64,000 nt of DNA from Nymphaea colorata (Eukaryota), in contig NC_045138.2 of assembly GCF_008831285.2 (NCBI RefSeq), forward strand, positions 2,108,001 to 2,172,000, written 5' to 3'. The notes beneath the pieces were generated by a model. That model worked only from the letters and a program-made list of their open reading frames with translations, did not search any database and had not been told where the DNA came from. Shown here piece after piece: positions 20,513 to 61,780 of this stretch. Positions within the stretch are counted from its first letter, which is position 1. Each line of letters opens with the position of its first letter. Position numbers and translations under genes: made by a program.

Positions 20513-21221
20513 GAAATCAATGTTATTTGAACCTGCCTGAATTGAGCCGAGTCTGGCAATTTTATTTGATTCAGTGGCTGATTCTCACTTATCATGTTCT
20601 GATTAATTTAATACTTTTTTCAATTTTATTAGTTCCTTTATTTTATTTTTTACAAAAAAATTTGAATCACTTAAATCTTTGACAATTTTAATTAATTTTT
20701 GAAAAATGAGAAATTTGCGATTTTGTTACACATAAGCAGCGGTAGACAGTGGCACCCGATTCATGATTTGATCCGGTTCAGACTTACCATTATAATAGGT
20801 CCAATCAGATAACAGGATCGACCAATATATAGGATCCAATACCATATATACAAAAACAATAACCATTTGTGCAAATATTCAAGGCACGATGCTGATTGGA
20901 TCAACATGGAAATATCTCGCTGGCCGGTACTGGAATAGATTCTGGACTGGTGCTCCGACCCATTCATAGCAACCTTTATTTTGAAATGAATGAAAATTTA
21001 AGAAACATATAGGATTGGAAATCAGGATATGTGTGAACTTAATTAAACATCTTTTATTTCCTAAAAAACATAGCTTATACATGGAAGTAAATAGAGAAAA
21101 TAATTTCTCCAAATAAGATAAATAGCAGCAGTGAGGTATTGGAAACCACAGTGAATTAGAAAGATCTGCTGAGAAAGAAATGAAGAAGAAGACGATGGCG
21201 ATGAAGGTAGCCAGCCTTTAA
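20513..21221 (+). pseudogene. Duplicated DEFL promoter + dead exon 1 (MAMKVASL*), unit 2
   Basis: Homology to 5590-6060 (ataagataaatagcagca, ccacagtg, gaagaagaagacgATGGCG); ATG 21195, early stop, no exon 2. Confidence 0.8.
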
Positions 21222-21498
21222 GTGTAGGCATAATTTTTTCTCCATCATCTTTCATTCCATTGCTACAAGGTGGGAATCTGACCACCTCTTTTTCGAAACA
21301 CAATATGTGGGTAGGTAGGCAGGCAGGCATACGTACCAAGCAAATCGCTTCGTACACCATCTTCCATTGCAAATATATATATATATATATATATATATAT
21401 ATATATATATATATATAGTTGAGATTACATCTCTCAAAGGATAAAAACATTTTGATGATGCAAATGGTGGAAAATTTCTCCATTCCATTCATTTCAAT

Positions 21499-21689
21499 CA
21501 GGGGGGCGGAGCCAAGGGGTGGCCCACATGGTCCCTCGCCCCACCTCAAAAAAAAAAAAATTACATGCAAAATTTAGAAAATTTTGCTTGTCTTATATAG
21601 AGATTTTGAAAAATGGTATTTCGGCCAGTGTCAAAATTTAGAAACTTTTGTTCCGCCCCTCGCGTGAAAAATTTCTGGCTCTGCCGTTG
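21499..21689. mobile_element. hAT-type MITE (ggggcggagcc family)
   Basis: Perfect 8-bp TSD atttcaat; empty site at ~35465; related copies or fragments near 1.5-1.6, 14.7-14.8, 27.5, 30.9, 44.1 and 59.6 kb. Confidence 0.85.
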
Positions 21690-24600
21690 ATTTCAATGTA
21701 CTTAAACAAAAAAGTTTACTCTTGTTCAGACATTTCCTCCAGTAATATGTGGGCAATCAGTGGCCATGTTTCTACTTTCATACTGTAAGAACAATGCCTT
21801 TAGTGCTTGTGTTGCATGATCTACTAGTAAAACCACTTGGTATGTCTTTTTTTTATGAAAATTTGTCTTTAATGATGTGGTGCTGCAAGAAAGGGAGGAA
21901 GGATACTGATATGTTCAAATTAAAAGAATGAAAATAATATGACCTCAAGACAGCAAAAGTGGCTGGGGCAAAAGGGCAGACAGCCTTCACCAGGGCGAAG
22001 GAAATACCCTCTTGCTCACCCAATGGGTGCCTTTTACTAAAAACCCTAATAGTCTTTACCAATATTAACAAGAAGGCAATTGGCAGAAGCAAAAAGGTAG
22101 AAGGTGATGGAGGCAGTCGGAGTGAGCTGCCGGAAAAAGGTGGGAGGACTTCATCACTTGTTTCATGAGGTGGTGCCACCGTCAAAATGCCTGACGGTGT
22201 TCTCACTAGTCTGGAGCCGTGCAGCCCATGCTGACTAGCGTATATGTGCAGAAAGGTTAAGCTCTTCTGGGTATTTACTGTCCAGCGGTAAAAAACACTC
22301 CACTTATACATCTACTGGGTAGTAGGAAACTACCATAATTTGTTCTCTCATAGGGGGAGAGGGAGGAGGAGAGACAGAGCCATAGCTCTTTATCTTGTCA
22401 AATATATAGCAAATTCTTCACTTATCATCCCTCTCCAGCACTCCTCTCCTTGCCCTTCCACGATTTAAAGTAAATCGAACGAGTATTTTCTCAAGCTCAT
22501 TATGTAATCATCCGCATCAACTGTTGTTAACAAATCCATGTTTTCCCCTTTGGGGAAAATTTCAAATTGTTTCGTGAAATAAATACATCCATGTAAATGT
22601 TTTCAACTTTAAATTTAACATTTCAATAGTAATTAAAAAATGAAAAAAATAGAAAGGTTAGTGAACATTGCATCGAAGTATTGCATGCCTTGGTGAGCCT
22701 GTACGGCCATTCGAGGATGCTCCGTCAGATCACGGCACCATTCAATATCATAAAAGGAAAAAGAAGATTTCCCTACGGACGAGTCTATGTATTTATGGAC
22801 AATCAGGATTCAGATACATCGCTTTGTAAAAACTTGTGACAACCACCATTACCAACATCACAACACTGAACATCAAGGGAGAGAGAGATCGAGGATAAAG
22901 ACTACAAATGGCAGAACTCTCATCAGACAACGGTACACTAAATGATCTCAGACGCCACCGGGAATTCCATTAATCAACGGATTAACTCATGATATAGTTC
23001 CTTTGTCCAATTTAGAAAAGTTTATAGAAAGCAAGTTATATGAGATGGAGGCCGATAAGTTGATTGTTGACATGGGGTGGACGATCAGTCCGAGTTACCG
23101 AGACAAATAGGTCAGGGTTCGGGAGTGGCATTTATGGTAATTGAGGGGATGAGGAGGGTCTGCTTAAGGAGGGAAGGGTTTGCTCTCAAAAAATGGGAGG
23201 GTGAAGCGGTCGTTGAACACACGTAAACCCCAGGTTAAGGTAATTCGTCGACCATGGTTAAGTAATTGGTTAAGTAATGAGAGAATGAGAGACGACGTGT
23301 CTGATTTTGCTTAAAATCTAAAACCAGGTGAGCACCCCAAAAAACCCTAAGAAACCATAAGCAATCCACTCACAGCAGACTTGTGCCAAAACACACAGAA
23401 ATCGCAACAAGGAAAAGATCCAGGCAGCGAGAGACAATTCGCAATCATTCACATGGAACGAAGAAAAAAACAACCTCTTGCAAAACCAATCCCACAGTCC
23501 AAACCCTTCGACATTGCCAAAACAAAAACGCAGTAATCAGCAGCCAAGAATTACGAACAAAGAAACGAAGCAGCGAACAGAGGAACAAAAACTAAAGCGA
23601 GGAGCTAAAAAGAACACGCAGAAACAACCAGAGATTAGCACAATCCCCCGAGGAAGAGACAAGGGGAATGGAAGGGAAGTAAGGATAACCGCAGGTGGAG
23701 ATCTCAGTGGCATTGCAGTAATTACTCATCTCCGCTGCAAATCCGGGAAAGGAGCGAGGAGAAGCCCTAGATTTCTCCCGTCGCAGGCACCGGAGGAAGC
23801 GGTCGGCGAATCGAGGGGGAGAAAGCGAGAGGAGGAAGAGGACGAGTAATCATTAGAGAGAGAGAGAGGGAGAGCGAGGGAGTGTGCGTGTATGTTCTTC
23901 GAATTTAAGGAAAGAGGAGTCCGCTCGACCAATGGGGACTCGACGTCGCTCGCTCGACTGTACGGACTTCCACACGAGCGACCGACGCTGGCCTCGCTCT
24001 CCCCTTCTACTGCCCTGCTCCTTCCTGGCTTCCTTGAATAAATTAATAATTAATTAAGTAATTAAAAATTGGTAAGAACGGGGAAACAGTACTGGAGAGA
24101 GTGAGAGAGAGGCCGTGGCTAGTACTGTTTCCCGTTCTTATCAATTTTTAATTACTTAATTAATTATTAATTTATTCAAGGAAGTCAGGAAGGAGCAGGG
24201 CAGTCGAGAGAGAGAGGGACTCATTGTGGAAGTCCGTACAGTCGAGCGAGCGACGACGAGTTCCCATTGGTCGAACGGACTCCTCTTTCCTTAAATTCGA
24301 AGAACATACAAGCACACTCCCTCGCTCTCCCTCTCTCTCTCTCTCTCTCTAATGATTACTCGTCCTCTTCCTCCTCTCGCTTTCTCCCCCTCGATTCGCC
24401 GACCGCTTCCTCCGGTGCCTGCGACGGGAGAAATCTAGGGCTTCTCCTCGCTCCTTTCCCGGATTTGCAGCGGAGATGAGTAATTACTGCAATGCCACTG
24501 AGATCTCACCTGCGGTAATCCTTACTTCCCTTCCTTCCATTCCCCTTGTCTCTTCCTCGGGGATTGTGCTAATCTCTGGTTGTTTCTGCGTGTTCTTTTT

Positions 24601-60324: not shown

Positions 60325-60970
60325 GAATCAAGATTTTCTAATGAATGTGAGCTAACAAGCGAAAAAAAAGCTTTGTACCTTTTTTGAATTTTTATGAAAT
60401 TCCACTGTACTTTGAAGAAACATATTTTCTAGGTTTTTTCAAGCCAGAGACCATACCTTTATAGTTAATTTCAATTTATATAAAAATATACATAGGTAGT
60501 TTTTTATATAATTTAGTTTCTTAAATCACTTTTACCTTCTTATTTTTTTATATTTTACATTTTAAAAGAATATTATATATTTCAAACTTTTCTACCTGGT
60601 GCTTGCACATCACATAGATACATTGCACGTTGCTTCATCTCACAAGCTCAACGCATCGCTTCGCATCAATGCACTTAACAACATTAAAATTGAATCAAGA
60701 TTTTTCTTTGTACATGAATAGGAGCTAACAAGTGAAATAAAGCTTTGAAACATTGGTTTTTGATTTTTTATGGCATTCTATCGTACTTTGAAAAAACATA
60801 TTTTTCATCATAGGTTTTTCAAGCTAGAGATCATACTTCTATAGTTAATTTCAATTTATGGAAAATTATACATAGGTAGTTTTTTGTATAATTTAGTTTC
60901 CTAAATCATTTTTACCTTCTTATTTTTTTAGATTTTACATTTTTAGAGAATATTATATATTTCAAAATTT
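60325..60970. repeat. ~270-bp direct duplication with ~95-bp spacer
   Basis: gaatcaagatttt...gagctaacaag...tacataggtagttttt...gaatattatatat occurs twice. Confidence 0.85.
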
Positions 60971-60979
60971 AGTCTATCA

Positions 60980-61780
60980 AGCAATGGCTGATTCTGTTCA
61001 AAACCCATCTTTGACATTTTTAATTAATTGTTGAAAAATAAGAAATTTGCAATTTTGTTACAAATAAGGAGCCATAGGAAAGTTGGGATATAGCCTTATT
61101 AAGATCTTTTCAAGGCAGTGGCACCCAATTAATGATATGATCCAGTTCAGCCTTAACATTATAATAGGTCCAATCAGATAACTGGATCGGACCAATATAT
61201 ATGACCCAATACCACATATACAAGAACAGGGCCCATTTGTGAGCAAATATTCAAGGCACCATCCTGATCGGATCAACATGAAAAGAAATATCTTGCTGAC
61301 AGGAACTGATCTGGGGAGCCTGGACCTGCTGCTCCACCCACTCATTGCAACCTTTATCTTGAAATTAATGAAAATTAAGAAAAATATAGGATCAGAAATC
61401 AGGATATGTGTGAACTTAATTAAATATCATTTATTGCCTAAAAAACATAGCTTATACACGGAAGCAAATAGAAGAAATAATTTCTCTGAACAAGATAAAT
61501 AGCAGCACTGAGGTATTGAAAACGACAATGAATTGGAAAAGTCTGCTGAGAAAGAAACGAGGAAGAAGACGATGGCAAGGAAGGTAGTCGCCCATTTAAG
61601 TGTACTTCGTTCTTATTTTTAAGAAATTAAGTTCATCTAGTAAGTCTTCCATCGAGCAGGTTTGAATATGAACACAACAAAAGGTATGCACCAGTTTGCT
61701 TTTCCTACATTTGTTTGCCTCATAGTGTCATACCCCCAACAGTTGTCACCATCATCTTTCATTTAGTTGCTACAAGGCGG
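60980..61780 (+). pseudogene. Duplicated DEFL promoter + dead exon 1 (MARKVVAHLSVLRSYF*), unit 6, cut by a retroelement
   Basis: ATG 61572; near-identical to unit 5 until gctacaaggcggg at ~61780. Confidence 0.82.

What the first reader, a model, noticed from the sequence alone, without database searches (positions are those of the whole stretch)
20513..61780. Candidate multi-hairpin small-RNA array driven by a co-opted defensin promoter
Seen: the promoter, leader and start of exon 1 of the intact DEFL gene recur at ATG 21195, 32465, 54486 and 61572, each with exon 1 disabled and no exon 2. Three of these are followed by 2-3 long inverted repeats in a conserved scaffold (C, F, E; G, H; I, F', E'); the fourth is cut by a retroelement. 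Known: long fold-back transcripts are diced to 21-24-nt siRNAs without needing an RdRP, DEFL promoters are often reproductive- or defence-specific, and inverted-repeat-derived reproductive siRNA/phasiRNA loci exist in plants. Inference: gene duplicates were converted into polycistronic hpRNA genes that keep the tissue-specific promoter.
Basis: partly seen in the sequence, partly recalled or inferred. Interest (0 to 1): 0.88.

Follow-up and report, generated by a model that had tools for sequence, protein, structure and literature searches.

The report
Defensin-promoter hairpins copying other genes' starts
In what is likely a water lily, dead copies of a defensin-like gene keep its promoter but are followed by long hairpins, at least three of them mirrored copies of parts of other genes, so they would likely make small RNAs that silence those genes, though no such RNA has been seen yet.

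Summary
Four dead copies of a defensin-like (DEFL) gene keep its promoter, and three of them precede long hairpins. A fifth, inverted promoter copy precedes a further hairpin. The new result is what the arms are made of: inverted duplicates of host genes. E/E' carry the start of a DUF630 gene (Pfam hits; mRNA reads). Arm I matches the first exon of an expressed gene whose reads leave at the arm's GT donor. A layer of C copies a conserved small-protein gene. Hairpin C is nested, with its youngest long layer innermost (89% outside, 98% inside). There are no target-site duplications and read depth is low, so this is not a dispersed foldback transposon. Expression is not shown. Three RNA runs (about 6% of each read, tissue unknown, no DEFL control) gave no reads on the promoters or scaffold of the two units laid. 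The stems show no G:U strand bias or compensatory change, and evidence for promoter constraint is mixed. Best reading: a family of promoter-fused, target-derived hairpin-RNA loci that likely trans-silence their source genes (0.5). Main rival: neutral debris of a palindrome-fragile site (0.3).

The parts
6039..6093 (+). Intact DEFL gene, exon 1 (signal-peptide-like), followed by a GC donor
   Evidence: Sequence; exon structure inferred from Victoria relatives P0001-P0003
9444..9625 (+). Intact DEFL gene, exon 2 (8-Cys domain); the only copy in the window
   Evidence: PF10868 E 8.8e-6, above cut-off; 78-81% to Victoria cruziana proteins; single tblastn hit
1641..1859 (-). Inverted copy of the DEFL core promoter without ATG, pointing at hairpin A
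   Evidence: 71-76% to the five other promoter copies; alignment A1
1..933 (.). Hairpin A; arms look like a 5' UTR exon plus intron start of another gene (donor-like motif at 753); may run beyond the window
   Evidence: 89% arm identity; gene-like character is by inspection only
14083..14542 (+). Hairpin B, recent copy of G
   Evidence: 13979-14574 is 93% identical to 33326-33934; arms 80%
20498..21226 (+). Unit 1: DEFL upstream region, promoter, leader and dead exon 1 (ATG 21195)
21234..22430 (+). Scaffold X (with an (AT)n tract) and Y; Y ends in an antisense copy of the DUF630 gene start (22102-22236) and what is likely its leader/promoter
22441..26313 (+). Nested hairpin C: layer a 22441-22699/26015-26313 (89%, shared with H), b 22725-22968/25748-25989 (94%), c 23001-23304/25093-25344 (91%), d 23315-24093/24121-24896 (98%)
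25566..25793 (+). Decayed copy of a conserved ~78-aa plant protein gene inside C; its 3' end and 3' flank form layer b (antisense copy at 22926-22967)
   Evidence: 88% to N. colorata A0A5K1GBV9 and 87% to N. thermarum KAF3776105.1; start lost and a nearly invariant Arg changed
24121..24896 (+). Right arm of layer d: looks like promoter, 5' UTR, ATG (24476), GT donor (24515) and intron of an unidentified gene
   Evidence: By inspection only; no Pfam hit; source not confirmed
27028..27446 (+). Hairpin F (old, 81%), likely from the DUF630 gene's upstream region
   Evidence: origin inferred from continuity with the DUF630 fragment in Y
27837..28314 (+). Hairpin E (73%): inverted duplicate of the DUF630 gene's 5' leader and first ~46 codons
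   Evidence: PF04783 E 3.2e-4 on the left arm; 85% to E'
31833..32479 (+). Unit 2: promoter, leader, dead ATG 32465
33395..33926 (+). Hairpin G (81%), related to F
34230..35080 (+). Hairpin H: outer layer a (88%) shared with C, different inner layer 34509-34640/34677-34805 (95%) with TATA-like word and ATG on the right arm
   Evidence: source of the inner layer not identified
43757..44732 (+). Truncated upstream-promoter copy (43757-44113) and hairpin J (44399-44732, 83%)
53853..54594 (+). Unit 3: promoter, leader, dead exon 1 and intron start (ATG 54486)
   Evidence: no RNA reads in X22-X24
54793..56176 (+). Hairpin I (95%), inserted where other units have the (AT)n tract of X; arms copy the promoter (TATA-like 55630), first exon (to 55843) and intron start of an expressed gene
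   Evidence: 45 X22 reads leave the window at the GT donor 55844 and 52 of 52 reads differ from it at 55720
56809..57337 (+). Hairpin F' (paralog of F)
57739..58218 (+). Hairpin E' (79%): DUF630 gene start in both arms (ATG 58096); an older outer stem pairs 57329-57466 with 58584-58729 (68%)
   Evidence: PF04783 E 2.5e-5 and 8.7e-5; mRNA reads of the source gene in X22 and X24
60985..61785 (+). Unit 4: promoter, dead exon 1 (ATG 61572), start of X, then cut by a Ty3-type retroelement

Best explanation
This is a tandem array of dead DEFL gene copies whose retained promoters sit in front of long inverted duplicates of other host genes, and it likely works as a family of hairpin-RNA genes whose diced small RNAs would silence those source genes in trans. 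Shown: the array, the hairpins, three distinct source genes (DUF630, the gene behind I, the small-protein gene in C), nesting in C and H, low depth and no target-site duplications. Inferred origin: an early duplicate acquired an inverted copy of a DUF630 gene start, and the unit was then amplified. Later breaks at palindromic sites (the old hairpin centre in C and H, the (AT)n tract for I) were repaired by fold-back copying of ectopic gene regions, so younger layers tend to lie inside older ones. Inferred function: Pol II from the DEFL promoter reads through one to three hairpins, and DCL2/3/4 cut them without an RdRP into 21-24-nt siRNAs. Exon-matching siRNAs would act on the source mRNAs; promoter- and intron-matching 24-mers would direct DNA methylation. 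The young arms (I, C-d, inner H, 95-98%) are the likely active ones; E, F and G (73-81%) are likely spent. The tissue is presumed to be that of the DEFL gene and is unknown.
For: Source genes: PF04783 hits on three arm frames, each partial and under the curated cut-off. RNA reads fit E' over ~50 nt and continue into more DUF630-like coding sequence. 45 reads leave arm I exactly at a GT donor, and 72 of the 150 X22 reads laid are 99%+ alike, so siRNAs from I would match that mRNA almost perfectly. The layer-b gene has an intact 88% relative in N. colorata. In all three confirmed cases the source's upstream side faces the loop. Recurrence: at least seven unrelated arm sequences (DUF630, a, b, c, d, inner H, I; also A and J), each downstream of a DEFL promoter or upstream copy, including a separate inverted promoter copy ahead of A. 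The core promoter is 86-90% identical between dead copies against 75-89% just upstream (3 of 6 pairs p<0.05) and 79% in Y (2 of 2 pairs p<0.002). Precedent: hairpins driven by a neighbouring gene's promoter (Mu killer) and pollen hp-siRNA loci.
Against: No reads on the promoters, X, Y or F' of units 3 and 4 in X22, X23 or X24. About 6% of each run was read, tissues are unknown, these are not shown to be small-RNA libraries, and no DEFL control was obtained, so this is weak. G:U against A:C mismatches on the + strand are 82:81 in the 11 non-redundant stems (117:112 in all 15), so there is no strand signature of selection. Compensatory changes between paralogous hairpins are not above homoplasy in 5 of 5 quartets. 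The core promoter is no better conserved than the dead exon/intron in the 54486-61572 pair (87% against 90%, p 0.58) and only marginally better than X (p 0.06); these pairs are not independent, and segments may differ in age. Source mRNAs for I and E' are present in X22, so they are not silenced everywhere. Sources of A, J, a, c, d and inner H are unconfirmed.
Confidence: 0.5

Rival explanations
1. Neutral debris of a fragile site: palindromes and (AT)n tracts in a pseudogene array keep breaking and capturing ectopic DNA as fold-backs; the promoters are passengers, and any small RNAs only silence the array itself.
For: No G:U bias and no compensatory evolution; old hairpins have decayed to 73-81%; I replaced an (AT)n tract with short microhomology at the junction; units are cut by retroelements; no scaffold reads; promoter constraint is equivocal.
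Against: A separate inverted promoter copy also has its own hairpin (A). The core promoter is better kept than Y and keeps a 29-nt word exactly in 3 of 4 copies. Long near-perfect palindromes are usually unstable and a promoter-driven hairpin against an expressed gene would rarely be neutral (general knowledge, not tested).
Confidence: 0.3
2. A haplotype-specific conflict locus (pollen drive, incompatibility or suppressor, in the manner of Tpd1 or Drosophila hpRNAs), in which rapid turnover of hairpin targets reflects an arms race in reproductive cells.
For: Rapid turnover of arms on a fixed promoter. In X1, three long contigs with 0 other letters have depth 15-19, while contigs that differ from the window mostly have 33-57, a hint that this haplotype is heterozygous or hemizygous there (the tool warns that depth is not copy number).
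Against: No genetic, tissue or segregation data. X1 could be a hybrid or simply heterozygous. The known sources (DUF630, small protein) are not obvious drive responders.
Confidence: 0.12
3. Pack-MULE or foldback transposons that carry gene fragments and happened to insert into the DEFL array.
For: Captured 5' gene fragments and long inverted ends recall Pack-MULEs (recalled); a MULE-like element with ~215-bp terminal repeats lies in the window.
Against: No flanking direct repeat longer than 6 nt at any of 12 hairpin ends tested, which is the level of random pairs. The arms themselves are the gene copies, not shared transposon ends. X1 depth is 23-78 on I and about 46-395 on unit 3's promoter and scaffold, against 4549 on a MITE bin and 5852 on the retroelement bin.
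Confidence: 0.05
4. S-locus-type dominance modifiers: small-RNA precursors that silence the neighbouring DEFL gene or its alleles.
For: Hairpins clustered beside a DEFL gene, as at the Brassicaceae S-locus (listing only).
Against: 0 of the 21-mers of 11 hairpins match the DEFL promoter, exons or 3' flank with up to 3 mismatches; the arms trace to unrelated genes.
Confidence: 0.03

Closest known systems
Endogenous inverted-repeat siRNA loci (endoIR; Arabidopsis IR71) and the target-inverted-duplication origin of MIR genes (PMC10827316, passages read; Allen et al. 2004 seen only as cited there)
   Same: Long imperfect fold-backs predicted to be diced without an RdRP; arms derived from another locus.
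   Different: Here many unrelated arms share one gene-derived promoter scaffold, several per unit and nested; transcription and siRNAs are not shown.
Maize Mu killer (PMC3440606, start of abstract seen; PMC10827316 passages)
   Same: A partial inverted duplication proposed to be read from a flanking gene's promoter and to silence its source in trans.
   Different: Mu killer is one hairpin against a transposon; this is an amplified family against several host genes.
Teosinte Pollen Drive Tpd1 and maize pollen hpRNA loci (PMC11390486, passages read)
   Same: Long non-coding hairpins that could silence protein-coding genes in trans, possibly in reproductive cells.
   Different: Tpd1 has shown 22-nt siRNAs, cleavage and drive; none of that is shown here. 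A tandem, promoter-sharing, nested array was not in the passages read.
Salicaceae ARR17/RR partial duplicates (PMC7947767, passages read)
   Same: Inverted repeats of a gene's first exon(s) that yield siRNAs against the intact gene.
   Different: One target and a sex-determining role; here at least three targets and no known phenotype.
Inverted-repeat-derived 24-nt reproductive phasiRNA loci of Asparagus (Kakrana et al. 2018, seen only as cited in bioRxiv 10.1101/2020.04.25.061721, passages read)
   Same: Long intramolecular duplex precursors.
   Different: Phasing, size class and anther specificity are untested here.

Membership tests
endoIR / hairpin-RNA siRNA loci | Extended imperfect inverted repeat that folds as one long stem | tested here: met
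   Arm identity 73-98%; z -19 and -57
endoIR / hairpin-RNA siRNA loci | Pol II transcript through both arms | tested here: inconclusive
endoIR / hairpin-RNA siRNA loci | Strand-biased 21/22/24-nt siRNA population, DCL-dependent and RDR-independent | not testable with these tools
   No run listed is described as a small-RNA library
Target-derived inverted duplications (Mu killer, ARR17 repeats, young MIR genes) | Arms homologous to a separate, expressed locus | tested here: met
   Met for I and E/E' by mRNA reads and for C layer b by intact Nymphaea proteins (expression not checked); untested for A, J, a, c, d and inner H
Target-derived inverted duplications (Mu killer, ARR17 repeats, young MIR genes) | Silencing of the source locus in trans | not testable with these tools
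   Needs degradome, methylome or genetics; source mRNAs are present in X22 and X24
Pack-MULE / foldback DNA transposon | 8-11-bp target-site duplication | tested here: not met
   Longest flanking direct repeat 6 nt or less at 12 of 12 hairpin ends tested; A not testable
Pack-MULE / foldback DNA transposon | Shared terminal repeats dispersed at high copy | tested here: not met
   For I and unit 3: depth far below the MITE and retroelement bins (rough contrast only).
S-locus small-RNA dominance modifiers | Precursor homologous to the 5' region or intron of the linked DEFL gene | tested here: not met
   0 matches of 21-mers with up to 3 mismatches for 11 hairpins; the intron insertion and other alleles were not tested
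Known Rfam RNA families | Match at gathering score | tested here: not met
   0 matches in the window; 16 sub-threshold hits at E up to 0.1 on stems and microsatellites, all far below gathering
Reproductive 24-nt phasiRNA inverted repeats | Phased 24-nt siRNAs in anthers | not testable with these tools
   No small-RNA data

The most novel reading that the evidence does not exclude
A self-renewing, multi-target RNAi cassette: a co-opted reproductive DEFL promoter drives hairpins that keep capturing the front ends of new host genes at their centre, so the locus holds a dated record of its targets like growth rings (68% outermost, 98% innermost) and silences a changing set of genes in one tissue, possibly in a haplotype-specific conflict.
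Probability: 0.2. Interest if true: 0.9.

Novelty: new variant of a known kind. Interest (0 to 1): 0.68.

Why it matters
Known natural trans-silencing hairpins in plants are mostly single events with one target. Here one promoter scaffold has taken up at least seven unrelated inverted duplicates of different ages, three traced to host genes. If expressed, it is a natural multi-gene RNAi construct and a time series for how hairpin and young miRNA genes are born from their targets and then decay, in an early-diverging angiosperm lineage. Even if silent, it documents repeated fold-back capture of gene starts at palindromic sites. The claim is cheap to test because N. colorata small-RNA libraries exist (bioRxiv 10.1101/2020.04.25.061721, passages).

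Tried and rejected
No whole genome is held for this window, so copy number and source loci could not be searched directly. No RNA holder was listed for 20900-28600; this is no evidence either way. Reads were laid only on 53000-62000; units 1-2, hairpins A and B and the intact DEFL gene have no read data. Pfam: of 271 stop-free frames of 38 aa or more listed, 255 were scanned; 9 flank frames were not scanned. Apart from DUF630, only weak hits far below cut-off appeared and were rejected. Searches for the full DUF630 source protein with a 47-aa arm frame found nothing; the query is short and decayed. The metagenome scans for a promoter word and an arm-I word found 0. The protein atlas gave no answer. 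Earlier findings: none. G:U strand-bias and compensation tests were negative; the MULE terminal-repeat control was itself skewed (3:16), so the bias test is noisy. A cDNA-hairpin origin was considered and disfavoured for I, because the arm runs about 125 nt upstream of a TATA-like word and includes intron. Literature searches listed no paper on this locus or on DEFL-promoter hairpin arrays; only listings were seen for most, the library lacks most subscription papers, and supplements (for example small-RNA locus tables of the bioRxiv monocot survey) were not seen and might list it.
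Full report
Setting. No genome is held for the window. The intact gene has exon 1 at 6039-6093 and exon 2 at 9444-9625; exon 2 matches PF10868 and Victoria cruziana proteins at 78-81%. A second protein in the window is 87-88% identical to Nymphaea thermarum and N. colorata proteins. The plant is therefore most likely a Nymphaea (inference).

Observation. 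Self-comparison and alignment confirm four dead copies of the promoter, leader and ATG. Their ORFs end after 8-61 codons and exon 2 occurs once. A 29-nt promoter word is found only in these four copies, with none expected by chance. Three more hairpins belong to the array: A (1-933) behind an inverted promoter copy at 1641-1859, B (a 93% copy of the G region) and J behind a truncated upstream copy. The repeating unit also includes over 1 kb upstream of the ATG and a downstream flank, so these are tandem duplicates of the DEFL locus rather than element-bounded repeats.

What the arms are. Three arm frames of E and E' hit DUF630 (PF04783; E 2.5e-5 to 3.2e-4, partial and below the curated cut-off), and nine copies of that coding fragment lie in the window. 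RNA reads from X22 and X24 fit E' over about 50 nt with shared differences and run on into sequence absent from the window; read by eye, the loose ends continue as DUF630-like coding sequence (consensus recalled). These reads come from the source gene, not the hairpin. For I, X22 has depth about 29 in the bin 55709-56009; 52 of 52 reads differ from the window at 55720, and 45 leave it at 55844, where the window shows a GT donor. Arm I is thus a near-exact copy of the promoter, first exon and intron start of an expressed gene that I could not name. Inside C lies a copy of a conserved ~78-aa plant protein gene with its start lost and a nearly invariant Arg changed; its 3' end appears in both arms of layer b. 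Layer d, A and inner H look like gene starts by inspection only. In the three confirmed cases the source's upstream side faces the loop.

Nesting and origin. C has layers a 89%, b 94%, c 91% and d 98%; H shares layer a (88%) but has a different 95% core. E' has an older 68% outer stem. A short side hairpin in C (84%, 49 columns) and the b/c order do not follow the gradient. I replaces the (AT)n tract present in the other X copies, with a short microhomology at the junction. No hairpin end has a flanking direct repeat over 6 nt, the level seen in random pairs. X1 depth is 23-78 over I and about 46-395 over unit 3's promoter and scaffold, against 4549 and 5852 in bins with a MITE-like repeat and the retroelement (a rough contrast, not a copy number). 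This rejects a dispersed foldback transposon for I and favours repair of breaks at palindromic sites by fold-back copying of ectopic DNA (inference).

Is it expressed or selected? Not shown. On 53000-62000, X22, X23 and X24 (about 6% of each read; 150, 1 and 31 reads laid) have no depth in the bins 53000-54805, 56311-57514 and 60525-62000, which hold both promoters and the scaffold. Low X22 depth elsewhere in I cannot be assigned to the hairpin rather than the source gene. Tissues are unknown, no run is described as a small-RNA library, and the intact DEFL gene and units 1-2 have no read data, so this is weak evidence against. Sequence tests were negative or mixed. G:U against A:C mismatches are 82:81 in 11 non-redundant stems. 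Compensatory changes do not exceed homoplasy in 5 of 5 quartets. The core promoter is better kept than the region upstream in 3 of 6 pairs and than Y in 2 of 2 pairs, but not better than the dead exon/intron in the one pair that shares it, and only marginally better than X. Young, near-perfect hairpins would not be expected to show compensation yet, so these tests mainly say that E, F and G are decaying. No hairpin 21-mer matches the DEFL gene, and Rfam has no match at gathering score.

Mechanism. Most likely (0.5), the DEFL promoter drives transcripts through the hairpins, Dicer-like enzymes cut them without an RdRP as described for endogenous inverted repeats (PMC10827316, passages), and the siRNAs act on the source genes' mRNAs and promoters. 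Every step after the anatomy is inferred. The main rival (0.3) is a fragile pseudogene array with passenger promoters. A haplotype-specific conflict locus (0.12) rests only on arm turnover and a half-depth hint in X1. Transposon (0.05) and S-locus-modifier (0.03) readings fail their tests.

Comparison and novelty. It works like Mu killer (flanking promoter, partial inverted duplication; PMC3440606, abstract start), the Salicaceae RR first-exon repeats (PMC7947767, passages) and maize pollen hairpins including Tpd1 (PMC11390486, passages). Membership of the endoIR class is met for structure and source homology, inconclusive for transcription and untestable for siRNAs. What differs is one gene-derived promoter scaffold carrying many unrelated, nested, differently aged arms. 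Searches listed nothing on this locus or arrangement, within the limits of an open-access library and without supplements. Verdict: a real and unusual feature, a new variant of a known kind; interest 0.68, rising to about 0.9 if arm-confined siRNAs and target silencing are shown.

Noticed in passing
window 10131-11565 (-): Broken endogenous copy of an RNA-virus polymerase gene just downstream of the intact DEFL gene; two separate frames hit PF00680 (E 1.5e-19 and 4e-18). Partitivirus-like is a recalled impression, not tested.
   Followed up: partly
window 6094-9443: The intact DEFL intron is GC-AG and holds a ~3-kb MULE-like insertion; related decayed copies lie at ~17643-19990 (215-bp terminal repeats, 85%), ~39200-42290 and ~48600-52950. 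MULE-like is by anatomy only.
   Followed up: partly
window 55307-55704, 59256-59687, 59943-60559: X1 contigs with 0 other letters have depth 15-19, about half that of most contigs that differ from the window (33-57): a hint that this haplotype is heterozygous or hemizygous in X1 (depth is not copy number).
   Followed up: no
window 56300-58700: X1 holds several further scaffold copies with their own deletions and joints, so more units than these likely exist in the genome or on the other haplotype.
   Followed up: no
proteins P0003, P0128-P0135: Victoria cruziana relatives of the DEFL protein form a 9-member cluster with near-consecutive accessions on one contig length, suggesting an intact tandem array there.
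   Followed up: partly
window 25575-25793 (+): The decayed small-protein copy inside hairpin C is held in the protein collection as a 73-aa protein (P0005), probably a gene call on a captured fragment.
   Followed up: partly
window 21503-21690, 27535-27652, 30880-31070, 59562-59720, 14707-14824: A short repeat family (MITE-like) inserted repeatedly in the array; X1 depth 4549 in the bin of one copy.
   Followed up: no
window 45545-48085 (+), 61786-64000 (-), 12400-13960 (-): Retroelement remains: RT, RNase H and integrase; Ty3 gag; a Copia-like RT fragment recognised by eye only.
   Followed up: partly
window 26317-26456 and 35082-35221: Right after hairpins C and H lies an inverted piece of the unit's own far-upstream region, followed by a second X-Y scaffold; C and H thus share one rearrangement.
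   Followed up: partly
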